A DNA stretch of 36,345 nucleotides from a virus. The stretch lies in UHGV virus genome UHGV-0073579. One strand, 5' to 3'. Each line of letters begins with the position of its first letter. Position 1 is the stretch's first letter. Under the pieces are notes generated by a model, which saw only the letters and a list, made by a program, of their open reading frames with translations, was not told the DNA's origin and searched no databases. The position numbers and the translations under genes are program-made. Shown here in pieces: positions 1,641-20,661 of the stretch.

Positions 1641-1673
1641 GTCGTTAATTCCTATGCGTGGTTTTACGATACC

Positions 1674-1720
1674 GAAGCCCTGACTGTTCCCGCAGTTGGG
1701 GCTTCACTGTTTTGATTTCT
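1674..1720 (+). terminator. Plus-strand hairpin plus T-rich tract between ant and arc (possible terminator of a sar-like antisense RNA)
   Basis: gaagccc...gggcttc stem followed by actgttttgatttctttg on the plus strand; no T-run on the minus strand. Confidence 0.35.
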
Positions 1721-2140: not shown

Positions 2141-2389
2141 ATGGCAAAGGGTGTGTCAATTTCTCCAACTACGGTAAGAATCCCTGAATCTTTACGCGAG
2201 GCTCTTGCTGTCAGAGCATCAAAAAATGGTCGCTCTGTTAACTCCGAGATCGTCATGATTTTGCAAGCCGCGATTGATGAAGATAGGTCGCCAAAGTCAG
2301 TTGAGTCATTTGCTCAGCAAGAAGCTGACAAATTCAAAGAGGCGCTGCTTGAGACGCTAAAGACCATGTATGGTAAGGATGAAAAATAA
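2141..2389 (+). CDS. mnt: Mnt-like ribbon-helix-helix repressor
   Basis: 82 aa; KNGRSVNSEIVMILQAAID and C-terminal FKEALLETLKTMYGK resemble P22 Mnt; divergent from arc. Confidence 0.75.
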   Translation: MAKGVSISPTTVRIPESLREALAVRASKNGRSVNSEIVMILQAAIDEDRSPKSVESFAQQEADKFKEALLETLKTMYGKDEK

Positions 2390-2925
2390 TGCTGCACACA
2401 ATTCATTTCTTATGCCCCGTTAACACTGCCACTGTTGGGCAACTTCAGAACCACTGTCTCACCGCATTATCTCAAGGCGCAACTGAATTAAATATCCATA
2501 TATCAAGTCAGGGAGGGGAAACTGCCGCTGGCTTTACTGCGTATAACTTTCTTAAGTCACTCCCTGTTACCGTTAGAACTCACAACATAAGCAATGTTGA
2601 ATCCATAGCTAATATCGTTTTCCTGGCTGGCTCAGAACGTTTCGCAAACCCATTATCAAGATTCCTGTTACATCCTCTATTATGGGGCTTTGCCTCCCCA
2701 GCCGCCGACCATGCCAGATTGAGAGAGTACGGGAAATGCCTCGATAACGATCTTGATCGCTTCGTTGAGACGTTCAATATCGACATCGGAACCCATATTA
2801 GGTGGGCATCCCTGATAGCAGACTCGACCATTTTGGATGCTAACAAGGCTCTTGAGCATGGCATAATTAATTCCATAAAAACTGCAAGGCTGGCATCCAA
2901 TCAGGCAAACTGGTGGGTTGTTTGA
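2389..2925 (+). CDS. ClpP-fold (S14-like) serine protease homolog
   Basis: 178 aa; start overlaps the mnt stop (TAATG); ISSQGGETAAGF / SNVESIANIVFLAG / RFLLHPL segments align to ClpP INSPGG / AASMG / MIHQP, with candidate Ser and His retained. Confidence 0.65.
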   Translation: MLHTIHFLCPVNTATVGQLQNHCLTALSQGATELNIHISSQGGETAAGFTAYNFLKSLPVTVRTHNISNVESIANIVFLAGSERFANPLSRFLLHPLLWGFASPAADHARLREYGKCLDNDLDRFVETFNIDIGTHIRWASLIADSTILDANKALEHGIINSIKTARLASNQANWWVV

Positions 2926-2977: not shown

Positions 2978-3400
2978 TTAGTGCTTGTATAGCTTGAACT
3001 CCCTGTCGAGCCATAAGACATAAAAAGTGGCTCCTATCTTATAACCAACCATAGGTGCCTTAGAGCAAAATCTGAACGCAATGAAATCCACATCTTGAGT
3101 AACATGCTTAGGAATCGGAGCCTTTATCGCGTTTCTGGCAATTTTTTCCGTCCCAAGCCCGTGTTTATCAGATTTTCGTATCTCATCCCATGACATCTGA
3201 CTTAACCTGAACAGCCTATCTGCAAATGCTGCCTTTTCATGCTTTTGGCAGCAATCTAGGCAATACCCCTTTTGTAGGTATCTAAGAGAAAATACAGGCG
3301 GACTTTTGTCTACATCATGAGATTCGTGATGGATAGAGAGGCCAACAGTAGCAGAGCTCTCTTTATCCCTCTGTTTTATTCTTCCCTTAACTCTAGACAT
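2978..3400 (-). CDS. Hypothetical 140-aa protein, coupled to the Panacea-domain gene (candidate toxin/effector)
   Basis: ORF starts 5 nt after the upstream gene's stop; basic N-terminus, Cys/His cluster (HHESH...CLDCCQKH); no family recognised. Confidence 0.5.
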   Translation of the reverse strand: MSRVKGRIKQRDKESSATVGLSIHHESHDVDKSPPVFSLRYLQKGYCLDCCQKHEKAAFADRLFRLSQMSWDEIRKSDKHGLGTEKIARNAIKAPIPKHVTQDVDFIAFRFCSKAPMVGYKIGATFYVLWLDREFKLYKH

Positions 3401-3405
3401 ACACG

Positions 3406-3849
3406 TCAGTTAATTAACGTTTTGAAAAAACCTTTCATAGAATCAAGTGTGATTTCTTGGCTAACCGCACCCTCAATGTAAGCATCTTTCCATGGCTGCT
3501 CTTCGTGAGTCATATTGCGCAGTTTCCAGGCAGAAAACTGACCATAAACTTTATACACCTCATCCAGCAATTCAATTTCATCTTCACTGAATTTTTTAGC
3601 GTCAAAGTTTTCTGGCGCAGGTAAAGCTCCGTTACCACAGTCCCTATATTTACGATACAATTCAGGAACTACTGGCCCATGCATCCAGGCTTCAATTTTC
3701 TCATTAAATAGCGGCTTACCCAGAAGAACCAGAGAAAACCCTTGGGCATAATACGTCAACTTCTGAATTTTTAGGTTAGAGATAATGTCGCCACTTTCTT
3801 CATCGCAATGCGCCAAGAAGTAGTCGGCGACATCAAAACAAGTGAGCAT
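3406..3849 (-). CDS. Panacea-domain (DUF4065; SocA/GepA-like) protein
   Basis: N-terminal DVADYFL...KIQKLTYYAQGFSLVLLGKPLFNEKIEAWMHGPVVPELY pattern typical of DUF4065; start chosen at the ATG with GGAGG 7 nt upstream. Confidence 0.7.
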   Translation of the reverse strand: MLTCFDVADYFLAHCDEESGDIISNLKIQKLTYYAQGFSLVLLGKPLFNEKIEAWMHGPVVPELYRKYRDCGNGALPAPENFDAKKFSEDEIELLDEVYKVYGQFSAWKLRNMTHEEQPWKDAYIEGAVSQEITLDSMKGFFKTLIN

Positions 3850-4223
3850 AAACATACCTCCATCTTGATAGCCGCAGCTATGTATACAACTGTGTCAAGT
3901 TGCATTTAATACCATAACAAAGCTGTCATCAATCCTTCAGAGGCTAACTTACAACCACTTTCTCGACACGTTTAAATCATTACGTTTCACATTTACTGCA
4001 TTTTCGCCGAAGTTACCTATAAGGTAATGTCACATTTCCTGCAAGTTTCATGCAATGTTGAAAAGTGAGCTATTCACTTTTCTATGACACTAAACACCAA
4101 AAATAGCACTTTTTGCTAAATCATTAGTCCAAGTTGTGGATGGTTTGTCGTTGACACGTTTTCACACACCACTCCACCAATACAGTATCATCTGGTATCC
4201 TGCTCAAAACTAAGGAGGTTGGT

Positions 4224-4451
4224 GTGAAGCGATGGTTCCTCATAATTACTGTTTTCGCGATCATTTACACTATTTTCCCTGCATTAAAAGCACCAATGCA
4301 AATAATTTCGCTAGCAATAATTGCAATTGGTGCTTTCATTGCAGTAGCCGTACTTGTGTTTAAGGTTTTAAAGTTTTTAGTTTGGCTATCAAAAGATGAT
4401 GGATGCAAAGTTCATCAAGAAAAAGAAGGCAAAATAACCAAAGTTGACTAA
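4224..4451 (+). CDS. Small predicted membrane protein (two hydrophobic helices)
   Basis: GTG start with strong RBS taaggagg 5 nt upstream; 75 aa with two hydrophobic stretches; divergent from the Panacea operon. Confidence 0.55.
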   Translation: MKRWFLIITVFAIIYTIFPALKAPMQIISLAIIAIGAFIAVAVLVFKVLKFLVWLSKDDGCKVHQEKEGKITKVD

Positions 4452-6571
4452 CTGTCACTAGCGAGCCATGTAATAATCCCCGTGCGGGCAATGGTTTTTG
4501 CTTCATCTGTTGATAAGGTTTTCTCCCATCTCTTAAATGCCCCAGATTGCATCAGTTTCCTTTCTATTACGCGTCTCACTTCTGCTCTGTCTACTGGTGC
4601 GTTTTGCAGGCGAAATAGCATTGATTTAAACTCAGGAGAAGACAGTAGAGCATCAGCAGCCTTTATCCTGCTTGTTTTCCCTGACATCAATGCTGACGTT
4701 ATCACCCCTGTTGCACCTACACCAGGAAGACCAGATAAGCTTGTAATACCTTCCGCCGCAGCGGCTTTTGAGGCTATTCCATAAATTTTTGCGAGACTAC
4801 CCTTTTCTTTCAGAAAGTTATTAACTTGCTGATCCACAAGACTACTAGCATACTGCTTACCAGTATTGAGTCTATTCATAGCCTTAGCTGCTTGATAAAT
4901 CGTATCAAGGCGCTTTGATGCATCTGTGCCAATAGCATCACGGAGAGCCTTCATATTGGCCCCATTGCGTGACATTCCGTTATACCATTTTACAAATCCA
5001 TCAACTCCTAATTGCTGACCAGGTGATTTGGCATAGCTGGTAAATGCTTTATTCATTGAGGTGAGCGCAACTTCCTGCCGCATATCCTTTGGAATCGACT
5101 TCATTAATTGCCTAAAGTCGCCACCGTTTCCTTTTGCCATATTAACAACAGCACTTTCAACTTTTGGAATTGCTGATTGCTGAAGTTTTCTACCCAAGAC
5201 GGTTACAGCATCATCTTCAATGGATTTTCGTTTTTTTACCAACTCCTTACCAAGCGTCCATAATTCCCCTGCGCCATATTTTTCTGCGACAGCCTGTTGG
5301 TCATCTGTTATGGCTGCATATAACTTTTTAAGAACACCTGTTTCTTCATCCTTGAATGGACCAGAGCCTTTGCCAATAGCTTGTCCAACCTGCTTTCTAG
5401 CGAGATCTAAACGCCCATACGTTGGCAAGGTGTTTGGATCAAGTCGGTTCAATGTCCGCTTCATTATTGGAGATAATTCATCAATTCCACCTATGTCATC
5501 AGCAAAATCCTCTAAAAAATTCAATGTATTAGTTGCCTCAATCCGGTCTCTTACAGGAACCTTTTCGGCAATTTTGTTGTAGATGTTATCTGACTGATTT
5601 TGTAATGATGAAATGGTTTTATCAAAATTATCTGCAAGCCTGTCAGAAACCAGTTGCTTATCAAGGCTTCCCCCAAATGAAGTTATCATTTCATCAGCTT
5701 TTCTTCCTAATTCAGTAATAAAACGCTTATGCGCCTCACTAATCTCTGTTCCAGGGAGACTTGCCACTGCATTATCAAGAGCCCTGACAGCAGGATTATT
5801 AGAGATCATGCCAGGAGTGGCATAATTTTCCAGTTCTAGCTCACGAATAGCATTTATCGCGTTAAAATCAGGATTAACTTCATCGGCGAAATCTTGAATA
5901 GCTCGTTGCCCGCCGATAAATTTATTGTCCATTGCGCCAGCAGCTTTCTTTAACGTTGCTTTAGATGATTTACTACCCATCCCTACGGATGAGCGATAAA
6001 TATCTCCGGCACTATTTTTAATTTTTCCTGCAATCTTCCCAAACGCTGGACCAACAATCTCTGCTACAGGGCCAGCCACAGCGCCAATAGCAGCTCCAGA
6101 AGCAACATCGCTATTTGTTCCATTGGCTACAATAGCCCCTTCTCCAGCACCAAGCCCTGCGGCGGCAGCCAGCCTTGCCGCCCCTTTCGGAACCTGAGAA
6201 ATAATCCCACCACCACTAACAAATGGTGCTGCTTGTCCAACGAACTCACCAACATCTTGTGCGGTTGATGGTTTTGCCGCTAACTTCTGCTGTAGAGACT
6301 GAATTGCGGCTTGCTCTTCTGGTGTCATATCCTGAAATAGACCAACACCTTTACCAACATCCATCAATCCACTGAGAACGCCATACATAAAACGGTCGAA
6401 GCCGTTAGCATTATTAACAACATTTTCCTGTCTGGAATTTTCCTCTGGTGAAACCAAAGGTGATTGCTGCTGCTCTGCTTGGGAATCAAGCACAAAACCA
6501 TCAGGAAGCTGTGAGTTATCAGGCTGATTATCGAGAACAAATCCTTCGGGTAAACCTACATCGGTTGCCAT
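4448..6571 (-). CDS. Ejection (internal) protein, P22 gp16-like
   Basis: 707-aa ORF immediately downstream of the gp20-like gene in the conserved gene order; Gly/Ala-rich. Confidence 0.65.
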
Positions 6572-7899
6572 TGTCCGTTCCTATAAATGAGTTTCTGACC
6601 AGTTTTAGGGTTCGTTGCCGTCGCGCCTTCTGATATCCAACTTGGCGCAGCTTTTGTCTGCCCATTACCACCTTGTGGTGTAGGCTGCGCTGGGACATCG
6701 TCAAATAGCTTGGCCTTCCTTCTCCCTAAGCTTTTTTTTAGCCCTTGAGGAATAGTATCTCCATACGTATCCAGATATTCGTCTACCTGCTGGTTAAACT
6801 GCTGCCCCATAGCGTTGGCGTTAATTTTGGCTGCGTTAACAATGTTATCCCTCGCTTCCTGTGACAAGCCATTCCCTGCATTAAGCTGGTCTACATATCC
6901 TTTTATCTGCCCCCATATGCCATCAGAGCGCATGACCTGAACCTGTTCACCTTCGCGAACAACTGACTGAGGGTCGAGAGACTTCATGTAATTAAAGATA
7001 ATCCCAAGTTGGGCAGCGCCAGTATTTACCTTGCTAAGGGCTTGCAGAGAGTTTGCCGCCGCTCTGACAGAGTTATAATTTTTGCCAAAATTGGTAATAT
7101 CAGAATTTAATCCCTTAATTAAGTCTGCTGACGGCTTACCTTTTTGCCCCAGCTCCATTAGCTTCAATCCCATCTCATCTGAGTGCATTTGTGCCCGCTG
7201 AGCCCTGTCTAGTTGAGCGTTCTGGATATTTGCCCATCCTCTCGCATTCTCCATATCAGCCTGACGGATGCTTTCATCCAATCGCCCTTTCTCAAGTTGG
7301 CGACCAACCATCTTATCCTGATAATCCAGCATTTTATCCGGACCAACAGCCCCTAGCGTCATAGTAGTCAGCATGTGTGATAGCTGCTCTGGATTCTGGA
7401 TACCTGTCTGAATCATCCAGTCAGCATTAGCGCCAACGCGATTTAACCTGTCCTTGTTGTCAGTAATGAATTTACTGTAGGCTTCCGGTCCCTGAGAAAG
7501 AGCGACGTTAGCCCTCATGGCTAAATCGCCCATATCGTTGCGTTGCTGATCATTAAGACCGGAAAACGCCTGTTGTGCCTGTGCAACAAACGCTGGATTT
7601 TCCTGGGCAAACTTAAATAGTCCCGATGGATCACCAGAAGCCCATGCATCAGCGTGAACCTTATTGAACGCACTAATAGCTTTCTGTTGCTGTTCCTGAT
7701 TGTAAATATCAGCAACTCCAGCCAGACCACGTAACGCGGTCAGACCAACGTTATTTGCACCTGAGCGAGCCAGTTCATTGTTTTCGCGGATCAGACCAAG
7801 CGTTGCGTTAATGTCGCTTGCCTTTGGCGCATTCTCATTTTGCGCACCGATGCCAGCAAGAAACCCACCAGAATTAATACCCTGTTGCCACGTAGCCAT
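6556..7899 (-). CDS. Ejection protein, P22 gp20-like
   Basis: 447 aa; position between gp7-like and gp16-like genes; sequence recalled as gp20-like. Confidence 0.8.
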
Positions 7900-7909
7900 T
7901 GATTACCCC

Positions 7910-8602
7910 TTAAAACAACGAGCCAAGCAGACCAAGACCAGCACCGATACCAGCACCCCACGGAGTTGATAGCTCGAGAGCACTGGCTATGCCACCACCC
8001 AAAAGTGCACCGGATGCAGCACCACTAACCCCCTGCTGCAATGCTGACGGTCGGTTGGCGTTTGCCGCAGCCAGCGCCGCGCTTTGCTGTGAAATCTGAC
8101 TCATGTTGTTGGCATATGTTTGCCCGGCGTTTGCCTGTCCCTGAAGAGCGCCAAGACCGATATTTGCCAGGTTGTTGTAATTGTTCATTTGTCCAGATAG
8201 CCATTGCTGACCAAGCGTTGGTGCGATTGTTGCTAACTGATTACTGGTTGCGGTGGAACCCAATCCACCTGTTGCTTCCGCTGCCGCCAGACTCTGATAG
8301 CGAGCCTGACCAGCAAGATCTTTGTACTGCTGAGAGTTGTAATACTGGTTAAGTGCCTGACCTTGCCCCTCCAGAGACGATAAGTTCTCGAGGCTGCCGA
8401 CATACTTCTCAGCCAGAGGAGTAAACGGTTTCAGGTTGTTCATGATGGTGTTGAACTGCTGATTTTGCAGGTCTGCGGCATACTTCTGAGCTTCTGCGGC
8501 ATACTTTGCACTTTTATCAGAACTGCCACCTTTCCCGCCTTTTTCAGGGTAATAAGGTTCCTCGCCGCGCAGTTTTCTGCCCAGCTTAAATGCATATAAC
8601 AT
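7910..8602 (-). CDS. Ejection protein, P22 gp7-like
   Basis: 230 aa; MLYAFKLGRKLRGEEPYYPEKGGKGG N-terminus and Gly-rich C-terminus ...TPWGAGIGAGLGLLGSLF match P22 gp7. Confidence 0.85.
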   Translation of the reverse strand: MLYAFKLGRKLRGEEPYYPEKGGKGGSSDKSAKYAAEAQKYAADLQNQQFNTIMNNLKPFTPLAEKYVGSLENLSSLEGQGQALNQYYNSQQYKDLAGQARYQSLAAAEATGGLGSTATSNQLATIAPTLGQQWLSGQMNNYNNLANIGLGALQGQANAGQTYANNMSQISQQSAALAAANANRPSALQQGVSGAASGALLGGGIASALELSTPWGAGIGAGLGLLGSLF

Positions 8603-20505: not shown

Positions 20506-20581
20506 TGGTGCTGGTTAACGGACTTGAACCGCTACCCATTCGCTTACAAGGCGACTGCTCTACCATTGGAGCTAAACCAGC
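20506..20581 (-). tRNA. tRNA-Thr (anticodon UGU)
   Basis: Hand-folded 76-nt cloverleaf: acceptor GCTGGTT/AACCAGC, D-arm GCTC-CAATGGTA-GAGC, anticodon loop CTTGTAA, T-arm AGCGG-TTCAAGT-CCGTT, 3' ACCA; one G-A mismatch in anticodon stem. Confidence 0.6.
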
Positions 20582-20586
20582 ATGTT

Positions 20587-20661
20587 TGGCGGGACAGCGT
20601 GGACTCGAACCACGATAAGAAGGTTAACAGCCTTCCGTAATGACCTTTATATGACTGACCC
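20587..20661 (-). tRNA. tRNA-like element, Asn-type anticodon arm (GUU), aberrant D-arm; possibly a pseudo-tRNA
   Basis: T-arm CGTGG-TTCGAGT-CCACG and anticodon arm GAAGG-CTGTTAA-CCTTC match tRNA-Asn; acceptor has one T-T mismatch; D-stem does not pair. Confidence 0.4.

What the first reader, a model, noticed from the sequence alone, without database searches (positions are those of the whole stretch)
4224..4451. Small two-helix membrane protein with strong RBS, divergent from late genes
A 75-aa ORF with a GTG start and near-consensus SD (TAAGGAGG) encodes two hydrophobic segments separated by a short loop, with a charged C-terminal tail. Its position next to the ejection-protein gene, on the opposite strand to the late operon, is where P22 carries sieA. 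Small membrane proteins at such positions often mediate superinfection exclusion by blocking DNA entry.
Basis: partly seen in the sequence, partly recalled or inferred. Interest (0 to 1): 0.5.

Follow-up and report, generated by a model that had tools for sequence, protein, structure and literature searches.

The report
Small membrane gene in sieA slot
A real 75-residue, two-helix membrane-protein gene sits in a P22-like E. coli prophage exactly where phage P22 keeps its superinfection-exclusion gene sieA and uses the same ribosome-binding cassette, but it is unrelated to SieA and its suspected role in blocking other phages is untested.

Summary
Window 4224-4451 (+) is a 75-codon GTG-start ORF behind TAAGGAGG. 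It encodes two hydrophobic helices, a 6-residue turn and a charged tail.

It is a real gene:
- It matches phrog_7294 over its full length.
- It is annotated WP_000832789.1.
- dN/dS is 0.27 against a 57%-identical homologue.
- It is AT-rich: 35% GC against 47% for the window.

A 33-nt block (4194-4226: GGTATCCTGnnCAAAACTAAGGAGGTTGGTGTG) is identical upstream of P22 sieA itself. In a sample of 126 P22-like loci, the same block precedes 11 unrelated cargo ORFs. Nine or ten of the 11 carry an N-terminal membrane or signal segment.

ORF75 is therefore an allelic replacement of sieA. It is not a SieA homologue: no BLASTP, hhalign or PHROG similarity, 2 hydrophobic segments rather than 3 TM helices, and no FxRYPxEAxxFNK motif. 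It is an orphan family confined to this slot. It always abuts one gp16 ejection-protein type, with the two stop codons overlapping.

Its function is not shown. My best guess, at about 40%, is a SieA-like but non-homologous inner-membrane block of phage DNA entry. Interest is moderate.

The parts
4224..4451 (+). ORF75: CDS for a 75-aa predicted inner-membrane helical hairpin. TM1 is about aa 4-21 (nt 4233-4286), the turn PALKAP is aa 19-24, and TM2 is about aa 25-46 (nt 4296-4361). An amphipathic stretch KVLKFLVWLSK and a conserved charged tail (aa 57-75, nt 4392-4448) follow.
   Evidence: Full-length match to phrog_7294, E = 3e-49. Annotated WP_000832789.1 'hypothetical protein' in NZ_CP031215.1. 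dN/dS 0.27 against L128.
4194..4226 (+). Conserved 33-nt translation-initiation cassette and recombination junction, GGTATCCTGCTCAAAACTAAGGAGGTTGGTGTG. It contains the SD (4211-4218) and the GTG start, and it is shared with P22 sieA and with unrelated cargo genes.
   Evidence: Invariant in alignment A1 of six loci including P22 sieA. It precedes 11 unrelated ORF clusters. Megablast hits in E. coli genomes start at window ~4193. 229 of 5426 genomes match only this block or more.
4161..4191 (+). Candidate sigma-70 promoter TTCACA-19 nt-TATCAT, at the position that corresponds to the annotated putative PsieA of P22. This is weak evidence.
   Evidence: My own hexamer scan gives 10 of 12 matches but a 19-nt spacer. 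The tool's consensus scan found no + strand promoter in 3700-4800. P22 PsieA is annotated at -31 to -61 from the sieA start.
3856..4193 (+). AT-rich (38% GC) intergenic upstream module between the Panacea-domain gene and ORF75. It is an exchangeable module found upstream of other cargo genes too.
   Evidence: 95-97% identical in phages Emek and phiv205-1, where a different gene follows the GTG. Upstream types and cargo types assort freely.
4448..6571 (-). Context: 707-aa gp16-position ejection ('DNA transfer') protein gene, last gene of the late-operon ejection cluster. Its stop codon overlaps the ORF75 stop.
   Evidence: Synteny with gp7, gp20 and gp16. About 23% identity to P22 gp16 over a 271-residue local alignment, E = 0.043. 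All ORF75 loci examined abut this same gp16 type with the same overlap.
2141..2389 (+). Context: mnt-like Arc-family repressor gene, on the same strand as ORF75. In the commonest ORF75 sub-lineage, ORF75 is the last gene of a co-directional string headed by this gene.

Best explanation
ORF75 is a prophage 'moron' cargo gene that occupies the sieA slot of a P22-like E. coli prophage.

The product is predicted to be a 75-residue inner-membrane helical hairpin. By the positive-inside rule it is N-in/C-in, with only a 6-residue periplasmic turn. Its most conserved part is a juxtamembrane amphipathic stretch plus a charged cytoplasmic tail, LSKxDxCKVxQExxGKITKVD.

It is translated from the same 33-nt Shine-Dalgarno/GTG cassette that P22 uses for sieA. 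It lies on the mnt strand, antisense to late transcription, so it is most likely made in the lysogen.

The most likely job is SieA-like in effect but not in ancestry. Sitting in the inner membrane, it would prevent the ejection-protein conduit of an incoming P22-like phage from delivering DNA into the cytoplasm. gp16 is the component that inserts in the inner membrane.

Shown here: the gene is real and under purifying selection; the hairpin architecture; nucleotide-level identity of the slot with sieA; non-homology to SieA; orphan status.

Inferred: membrane location and topology, expression in lysogens, exclusion activity, and the target.
For: 1. Slot identity. The 33 nt ending in the GTG are identical to P22 sieA. 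Cargo is exchanged precisely at this junction.
2. ORF75 is found behind the P22 PsieA-type upstream sequence in several loci. Conversely, sieA is found behind the window-type upstream sequence in 3 of 12 loci.
3. Of the 11 unrelated cargo clusters in the slot, 9 have an N-terminal hydrophobic or TM segment by a Kyte-Doolittle threshold. A tenth looks like a signal peptide by eye. Only one is soluble. The one characterised cargo is SieA, an inner-membrane blocker of P22-like DNA injection (PMC10883804).
4. Each locus has one cargo ORF between the cassette and gene 16, with a gap of -4 to +63 nt in most. This is an allelic, mutually exclusive arrangement.
5. Orientation. It is co-directional with mnt. 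In the most abundant sub-lineage (P0006, 619 contigs) it is the last gene of an Arc(mnt)-92aa-186aa-ORF75 string. In L128 it follows the ClpP-like gene after 56 nt.
6. It has moron hallmarks: 34.6% GC against 46.9%. All cargo classes are 35-43% GC against 45% for the loci.
7. Its architecture is the same as T4 Imm (83 aa, two hydrophobic segments, charged C-tail), a known injection-blocking immunity protein.
8. Selection is purifying on the protein, and strongest on the tail.
Against: - There is no experimental or expression evidence of any kind.
- There is no similarity to SieA, T4 Imm or any defence model.
- The periplasmic loop is only about 6 residues, so it could not contact periplasmic gp20 in the way proposed for SieA.
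- SieA's conserved cytoplasmic motif is absent.
- One cargo family in the slot is soluble, so the slot is not strictly an 'envelope' slot.
- The consensus scan found no + strand promoter or terminator. My best promoter candidate has a 19-nt spacer.
- Among close alleles dN/dS is about 0.3-1.8, but on very few substitutions, and all 13 differences between the two sub-lineages fall in the first 34 codons. This says little about constraint.
- The invariable linkage to one gp16 type may be mere physical adjacency.
Confidence: 0.4

Rival explanations
1. A lysogenic-conversion or host-fitness factor unrelated to phage exclusion. A small inner-membrane protein would modulate a host transporter, sensor kinase or envelope property, in the manner of the small membrane regulators of E. 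coli. It would be carried as a moron because it benefits the lysogen.
For: A YobH-family small protein is an alternative cargo in the same slot; the only YobH tie to E. coli seen here is that PGAP names this E. coli prophage protein 'YobH family', and a chromosomal E. coli yobH is my own knowledge. Most cargo families have no known function. The conserved part of ORF75 is a cytoplasmic tail, which could dock on a host protein.
Against: ORF75 has no relatives outside P22-like phages in 1.84 billion representative proteins. It is strictly tied to the ejection-gene end of the ant moron. The only characterised occupant of the slot is an exclusion protein (PMC10883804).
Confidence: 0.2
2. A membrane-damaging effector: an abortive-infection or toxin-like small hydrophobic protein that depolarises the inner membrane when induced or triggered, rather than blocking entry.
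For: There is a weak hit to a PADLOC '4TM effector' model, E = 0.052. The protein is a small hydrophobic hairpin. In this window the neighbourhood holds a Panacea-domain toxin-antitoxin-like pair.
Against: The hit is far below significance. ORF75 occurs without the Panacea pair, and with three different upstream neighbours, so it is not part of a fixed multi-gene system. A near-consensus SD on a constitutively placed gene is unexpected for a toxin that has no partner.
Confidence: 0.12
3. A holin or antiholin-like lysis-timing protein: a class II holin architecture of two TM helices and a charged C-terminal tail.
For: The architecture matches class II holins (own knowledge). There is a weak PHROG hit to a holin/anti-holin family, phrog_14607, E = 0.083.
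Against: The prophage has a complete separate lysis cassette: lambda-family holin, GH24 endolysin and Rz-type lysis protein. ORF75 is antisense to the late operon, in the immI/ant moron, far from the endolysin. There is no significant holin family match.
Confidence: 0.05
4. A decaying or functionless hitch-hiker ORF, kept only because it is welded to the 3' end of gene 16.
For: dN/dS is near 1 among close alleles, on few substitutions. There is one frameshifted copy, L154. The family is narrow.
Against: Frame, length, start codon and tail are conserved at 57% protein identity, with dS about 1.07 and dN/dS 0.27. Two independent translation-initiation solutions (GTG with the sieA cassette; ATG with its own GGGAGG) preserve the same N-terminus. 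22 of 23 IMG/VR copies are intact.
Confidence: 0.08

Closest known systems
P22 SieA (superinfection exclusion A; phrog_7745; types A, B and C of Leavitt et al. 2024, PMC10883804)
   Same: Same genomic slot at nucleotide resolution: an identical 33-nt SD/GTG cassette, between gene 16 and the immI genes, on the strand opposite the late operon. Both are AT-rich. Both are predicted inner-membrane proteins with a cytoplasmic C-terminal tail.
   Different: No sequence or profile similarity. 75 aa against 162-164 aa or more. Two hydrophobic segments against three or four TM helices. The FxRYPxEAxxFNK motif is absent. There is almost no periplasmic exposure. Function is untested.
T4 Imm (immunity to superinfection, 83 aa)
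   Same: Similar size and the same architecture, as read from the sequences: two hydrophobic segments followed by a charged C-terminal tail. Imm blocks entry of superinfecting DNA (record annotation; PMC11436027).
   Different: No sequence similarity. No Imm-family entry appears in the Pfam output at E <= 1. Imm is an early gene of a virulent phage, not a prophage moron.
The 'ant moron' of P22-like phages (Villafane et al. 2008, PMC2629481)
   Same: ORF75 lies in this known hyper-variable region between genes 16 and 9. The region was already described as being in rapid flux: ten types in sixteen genomes, with genes of unknown function such as HK620 hkcB and epsilon34 gene 14.
   Different: That paper, as far as I read it, describes gene-content variation. 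It does not describe the invariant 33-nt initiation cassette, or the near-universal envelope targeting of the cargo that follows it.
HK97 gp15 moron (Cumby et al. 2012, J Bacteriol 194:5012; paper not held, so details are from memory)
   Same: A small prophage-expressed inner-membrane moron protein that blocks DNA entry of related phages. It resembles a host small-protein family (YebO). Here a YobH-like protein is an alternative cargo.
   Different: A different phage type (siphovirus), a different locus and no demonstrated homology. I could not re-read the paper.
Class II holins and pinholins (e.g. phage 21 S21; own knowledge)
   Same: About 70 aa, two TM helices, N-in/C-in, charged C-terminal tail.
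   Different: The location and strand are wrong. A separate complete lysis cassette is present. There is no significant family match.

Membership tests
SieA family (P22 SieA types A/B/C; phrog_7745) | Detectable sequence homology to SieA | tested here: not met
   BLASTP against P22 SieA gives a best E of 3.5. hhalign of the ORF75 family against the SieA type A alignment gives probability 0.1%. The PHROG scan at E <= 1 does not list phrog_7745, whereas SieA itself hits it at 9e-109. Types B and C were not tested directly.
SieA family (P22 SieA types A/B/C; phrog_7745) | About 160-200 aa with three (type A) or four predicted TM helices | tested here: not met
   75 aa with two hydrophobic segments. 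SieA properties are taken from PMC10883804.
SieA family (P22 SieA types A/B/C; phrog_7745) | Conserved cytoplasmic motif FxRYPxEAxxFNK near the C-terminus | tested here: not met
   The motif is absent from the ORF75 sequence and from all 18 family members. It is present in P22 SieA as FGRYPGEANGFNK.
SieA family (P22 SieA types A/B/C; phrog_7745) | Located between the gene 16 and gene 9 homologues of a P22-like prophage | tested here: met
   The same 33-nt initiation cassette is used as for P22 sieA.
SieA family (P22 SieA types A/B/C; phrog_7745) | Blocks DNA injection by P22-like phages only; escape maps to gp16/gp20 | not testable with these tools
   Needs plating, K+ efflux and escape-mutant experiments.
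T4 Imm family (Pfam Imm_superinfect; family name from memory) | Sequence homology to Imm | tested here: not met
   BLASTP finds no alignment at E <= 100. The Pfam scan at E <= 1 lists only DUF3754 at 0.083.
T4 Imm family (Pfam Imm_superinfect; family name from memory) | About 80 aa, two hydrophobic segments, charged C-terminal tail | tested here: met
   Compare the sequences. This shows a shared architecture only, not membership.
Moron (independently expressed insert in a phage operon; Hendrix/Juhala definition as quoted in PMC2629481) | Present or absent, or replaced, among otherwise syntenic relatives | tested here: met
   11 alternative cargo clusters occur at the same junction.
Moron (independently expressed insert in a phage operon; Hendrix/Juhala definition as quoted in PMC2629481) | Deviant base composition | tested here: met
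   34.6% GC against 46.9% for the window. All cargo classes are 35-43% GC.
Moron (independently expressed insert in a phage operon; Hendrix/Juhala definition as quoted in PMC2629481) | Own promoter and terminator | tested here: inconclusive
   The tool scan gives no + strand consensus promoter, and only a weak terminator-like site at 4655-4672, inside gene 16. A candidate TTCACA-19-TATCAT lies at the PsieA-equivalent position.
Class II holin / pinholin | Encoded in the lysis cassette next to the endolysin, in the late operon | tested here: not met
   The lysis cassette (holin, GH24 endolysin, Rz-like) is annotated elsewhere in the prophage. ORF75 is antisense to the late operon.
Class II holin / pinholin | Match to a holin family model | tested here: not met
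   Only phrog_14607 at E = 0.083. No Pfam holin family matches.
Panacea (PanA) toxin-antitoxin module | Obligate co-occurrence of ORF75 with the Panacea-domain gene | tested here: not met
   ORF75 homologues occur without any Panacea gene, in L128 and in L156-L160. The E. coli matches break at the cassette, upstream of ORF75.

The most novel reading that the evidence does not exclude
The sieA slot of P22-like phages may be a dedicated cassette-exchange site. An invariant 33-nt promoter-proximal SD/GTG linker would let at least 11 non-homologous envelope proteins be swapped in as alternative blockers of the ejection-protein DNA conduit. ORF75, at 75 aa with almost nothing outside the bilayer except a cytoplasmic tail, would be a minimal injection blocker. 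It would act on the membrane-inserted gp16 channel, or on a host inner-membrane cofactor, from within the membrane or the cytoplasmic face. The panel of cargoes would then give a natural toolkit for dissecting how podovirus DNA crosses the inner membrane.
Probability: 0.25. Interest if true: 0.65.

Novelty: new variant of a known kind. Interest (0 to 1): 0.4.

Why it matters
How short-tailed phages move DNA across the inner membrane, and how SieA stops it, is unresolved. Leavitt et al. 2024 note that it is hard to see how SieA interactions survive such ejection-protein diversity.

If ORF75 and its slot-mates are alternative exclusion proteins, they would be independent, very small probes of the same step. 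They would also explain why two thirds of sequenced P22-like phages lack sieA. The conserved 33-nt linker is a concrete example of a module-boundary sequence that mediates cargo exchange.

If ORF75 has no exclusion activity, it is just one more uncharacterised moron in a region already known to be hyper-variable.

Tried and rejected
- **Family scans of ORF75.** Pfam, NCBIfam and PADLOC gave only sub-threshold noise: DUF3754 at E = 0.083, a PADLOC '4TM effector' at 0.052, and nothing in NCBIfam.
- **Homologue searches.** The word-indexed search of 5.8 billion proteins found only relatives at 84% identity or more. Exhaustive phmmer against 1.84 billion representatives found only its own cluster, one 57% homologue and a spurious 722-aa repeat protein. 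No distant relatives were available for a deeper profile.
- **Structure.** The AF2 model is a plain helical hairpin. Foldseek against viral structures gave no hit with E < 6. A PDB sequence-profile search gave nothing. I ran no further search on a two-helix model.
- **Direct comparisons.** SieA, T4 Imm, P22 orf59a, the 62-aa two-TM cargo and the YobH-like cargo all gave nothing. The only shared feature is the first residues, MKRW, with the YobH-like cargo.
- **Multi-gene system with upstream neighbours.** Rejected, because the neighbours differ: Panacea pair here, ClpP-like in L128, and 92-aa plus 186-aa unknowns in L156-L160. The 186-aa protein is not ClpP-like.
- **Holin.** Rejected on location and on the presence of a full lysis cassette.
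- **Taxonomic range of the cassette.** Two scans of the one-genome-per-species collection, with the 33-nt and then a 22-nt pattern, found nothing. Range therefore rests on IMG/VR, the E. coli genomes and source names (E. coli and Salmonella).
- **Literature.** No paper mentions WP_000832789 or phrog_7294. The HK97 gp15 paper is not held. A 2026 E. coli HS phage preprint has nothing on this locus.

Full report
**1. What the window is**

The stretch 3900-4700 is 100% identical to E. coli Es_ST80_L1_NDM_10_2017 (NZ_CP031215.1). It is 99.5% identical to phages EC.P3 and E212.

The annotation of that genome shows a P22-like (Lederbergvirus-type) prophage. On the - strand the window holds, in order:
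- the tailspike gene, cut by the window start;
- ant (711-1640);
- a small ORF and arc;
- much further along, the late genes gp16-type (4448-6571), gp20-type (6556-7899), gp7-type (7910-8602), and so on.

On the + strand it holds sar RNA (1642-1708; Rfam RF00262, 76.6 bits), an mnt-like Arc-family gene (2141-2389), a ClpP-like gene (2389-2925) and the ORF in question. Between the ClpP-like gene and the ORF lie two - strand genes: a Panacea-domain protein (3406-3855; PF13274, E = 2e-24) and a 140-aa partner (2978-3400). This is the 'ant moron'/immI region of P22-like phages (PMC2629481).

**2. The observation**

- The ORF runs 4224-4451 (+): GTG start, 75 codons, TAA stop.
- TAAGGAGG lies at 4211-4218, 5 nt before the GTG.
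- A Kyte-Doolittle scan shows two hydrophobic stretches, about aa 4-21 and 25-46/56, joined by PALKAP.
- The tail [29 protein letters not shown] carries 7 K/R and 5 D/E.
- K/R counts are 2 at the N-terminus, 1 in the loop and 7 at the C-terminus. The positive-inside rule therefore gives N-in/C-in (inference).
- AlphaFold2 on an 18-sequence alignment gives helix 2-17 and helix 19-68, with mean pLDDT 75.

The description is therefore correct. The only slip is the word 'divergent'. The ORF converges on gene 16, and their stop codons overlap.

**3. Is it a gene?**

- With the ORF's own base composition, 75 stop-free codons have probability of about 0.003.
- The ORF matches phrog_7294 end to end, E = 3e-49, function unknown.
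- PGAP annotates it as WP_000832789.1.
- The full ORF is in 34 of 5426 complete E. coli genomes and in 23 IMG/VR contigs. 22 of those are intact and L154 is frameshifted.
- It is also in Salmonella (source names; phage S.Kent 1-2-1).
- Exhaustive phmmer over 1.84 billion representatives finds only one more cluster, P0022, which is 57% identical and also 75 aa.
- P0022's gene (L128) keeps the GTG, the length and the position. Against the window, dS = 1.07 and dN = 0.29, so dN/dS = 0.27. For the last 19 codons dN/dS is 0.11.
- The invariant or near-invariant residues cluster in L49-K50-F51-L52 and in LSKxDxCKVxQExxGKITKVD.

So it is a real, protein-coding orphan family, and its tail is its most constrained part.

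Among close alleles there are too few changes to say much. All 13 differences between the two sub-lineages lie in the first 34 codons. That looks like a mosaic junction inside the gene.

**4. The slot**

I aligned the 220 nt around the start codon from six sources: the window, a YobH-like locus (L003), phage Emek, phage phiv205-1, phage epsilon34 and P22 sieA. The block GGTATCCTGnnCAAAACTAAGGAGGTTGGTGTG is invariant in all six. Similarity stops at the GTG or a few codons after it.

Together with the loci already fetched, this gave 126 complete ORFs starting at that GTG. They fall into 11 BLAST-unrelated clusters:

| Cluster | Loci |
|---|---|
| 107-109 aa, N-terminal TM plus coiled coil (epsilon34 gp14 / HK620 hkcB type) | 38 |
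| 129 aa, signal-peptide protein (Emek orf129) | 25 |
| SieA, 164 aa | 12 |
| ORF75 | 12 |
| 62 aa, two-TM protein (unannotated in phiv205-1) | 11 |
| 116 aa, four-segment protein | 6 |
| 140 aa, soluble protein | 5 |
| 149 aa, TM-anchored protein | 5 |
| 103-106 aa, TM protein | 4 |
| 68 aa, YobH-like | 4 |
| 99 aa, apparent signal peptide | 4 |

- Nine clusters pass my hydrophobicity threshold, a tenth looks like a signal peptide by eye, and one is soluble.
- All are AT-rich: 35-43% GC against 45% for the loci.
- Apart from SieA (phrog_7745), none has a known function in Pfam or PHROGs.
- Each locus has one cargo ORF. In most loci it ends within -4 to +63 nt of the gene 16 stop.
- The roughly 40 nt upstream of the block come in at least five types, and these assort freely with cargo. 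ORF75 is found behind the P22 PsieA-type sequence, the window type, the epsilon34 type and two others. sieA is found behind the window type in 3 of 12 loci.

The counts are therefore illustrative.

229 of 5426 complete E. coli genomes match the query 4190-4451, 34 of them over the whole ORF; in the listed rows the other matches cover only roughly the first 40 nt, that is, the cassette.

**5. Other arrangements of ORF75**

- The most abundant sub-lineage is P0006 ('MKQW...'; 619 contigs, 1108 index blocks). It starts with ATG behind its own GGGAGG.
- In that sub-lineage it is the last gene of a co-directional string: Arc-family (mnt) gene, 92-aa gene, 186-aa gene, ORF75, with a 28-nt gap before ORF75.
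- In L128 it follows the ClpP-like gene after 56 nt.
- The upstream partners are unrelated to one another. ORF75 is therefore not part of a fixed multi-gene system, and not part of the Panacea pair.

What never changes is the downstream neighbour. All 28 loci checked have the ORF75 stop overlapping the stop of a long convergent ORF, 710 or 718 open codons where not truncated. In the cross-tabulation, ORF75 pairs only with gp16 C-terminal class 2 (12 of 12). That class also occurs with the YobH-like cargo (3) and the soluble cargo (1). The L128 gp16 is 78% identical to the window's, while ORF75 is 57% identical, so the pair has diverged together. I cannot separate functional coupling from physical linkage.

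**6. Comparison with known families**

SieA is a 162-164 aa inner-membrane protein with three predicted TM helices. It is necessary and sufficient to block DNA injection by P22-like phages. Escape changes map to the C-terminal parts of gp16 and gp20. Types A, B and C share a cytoplasmic FxRYPxEAxxFNK motif. Only 22 of 66 sequenced P22-like phages have sieA (PMC10883804).

ORF75 shares the slot and nothing else:
- BLASTP gives E = 3.5.
- hhalign gives probability 0.1%.
- There is no phrog_7745 hit.
- The motif is absent.
- It is half the size, with two hydrophobic segments rather than three TM helices.

T4 Imm (83 aa) has the same two-segment plus charged-tail layout but no sequence similarity.

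Class II holins share the layout too. However, the prophage has its own holin/endolysin/Rz cassette, and ORF75 is antisense to late transcription.

[quoted passage not shown] In the sections I read, I did not find the invariant initiation cassette or the envelope bias of its cargo described.

**7. Mechanism**

My best-supported reading is as follows. ORF75 is a prophage-expressed inner-membrane hairpin that acts as a functional analogue of SieA. It would interfere with the inner-membrane step of DNA delivery by incoming P22-like phages.

The steps shown are gene reality, predicted architecture, slot identity and non-homology. The steps inferred are expression in lysogens (from strand, mnt-operon placement and the shared sieA cassette and upstream sequences), membrane topology, and the exclusion activity itself.

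With a 6-residue periplasmic turn, it could only act within the bilayer or through its conserved cytoplasmic tail. The target would therefore have to be membrane-inserted gp16 or a host inner-membrane factor, not periplasmic gp20. I put this reading at about 0.4. The rivals are:

| Rival | Confidence |
|---|---|
| Host-physiology modulator | 0.2 |
| Membrane-damaging abortive or toxin-like effector | 0.12 |
| Functionless hitch-hiker | 0.08 |
| Holin-like | 0.05 |

**8. Verdict**

The gene is an already-catalogued but uncharacterised orphan, sitting in a region known to be variable, so by itself it is moderately interesting.

The added value is the demonstration that it is an exact allelic replacement of sieA behind a shared 33-nt cassette. 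It is one of about eleven mostly envelope-targeted alternatives. This turns 'why do most P22-like phages lack sieA?' into a directly testable question.

Noticed in passing
window 2978-3855 (- strand): A two-gene operon sits inside the ant moron, divergent from ORF75. It encodes a Panacea/SocA-like antitoxin-domain protein (3406-3855; PF13274, E = 2e-24) followed 5 nt later by a 140-aa protein (2978-3400; phrog_8366) with a weak PADLOC NsnC hit (E = 1.8e-7). It looks like a PanA-type toxin-antitoxin or defence pair. It is shared with phage Emek and other loci.
   Followed up: partly
window 2389-2925 (+ strand): A 178-aa ClpP-like serine-protease-fold gene (PF00574, E = 5e-12) directly follows the mnt-like repressor gene, with overlap of stop and start. 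It is also present in L128 and phiv205-1, where it is annotated 'head maturation protease'. A ClpP-like gene in the prophage-expressed immI operon is odd and unexplained.
   Followed up: no
L006 (phage phiv205-1, MN340231.1), locus ~3322-3510: An unannotated 62-aa two-TM ORF (MKKKFVNVAKCAIFIFF...) starts at the same conserved GTG. It recurs in 11 sampled loci (phrog_21338). ORF75 itself is likewise unannotated in phage E212 (MZ043897.1).
   Followed up: partly
window 4194-4226, and loci L008-L127: Upstream promoter-region types (at least five) and cargo types (11) recombine freely on either side of the invariant 33-nt block. The block behaves like a module-boundary 'linker' for homologous exchange. 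Three cargo families (ORF75, YobH-like and the 99-aa protein) also share the first four residues, MKRW.
   Followed up: yes
L154 (IMGVR_UViG_3300045988_091342), ~1580-1821: A copy of the MKQW-type ORF75 carries a 1-nt deletion in codon ~14. It is the only disrupted copy among the 23 IMG/VR relatives.
   Followed up: partly
L156-L160 (e.g. CP194313.1), locus 5875-7228: In the commonest ORF75 lineage the gene follows two conserved unknowns: a 92-aa protein (phrog_4231) and a 186-aa protein (phrog_5820) with a weak coiled-coil hit. Both lie in the mnt-headed string. Their function is unknown.
   Followed up: partly
window 20506-20661 (- strand) and 1642-1708 (+ strand): The prophage carries tRNA-Thr(TGT) and tRNA-Asn(GTT) between the Q antiterminator and the lysis genes. 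It also has a full-length sar antisense RNA (Rfam RF00262, 76.6 bits) opposite the arc-ant junction, so the immI circuit appears intact.
   Followed up: no
window 4224-4325 versus 4326-4451: All 13 nucleotide differences between the MKRW and MKQW sub-lineages of ORF75 fall in the first 102 nt, and none in the last 126 nt. This suggests a recombination junction inside the gene, or that the 3' part travels with the adjoining gene 16 end.
   Followed up: partly
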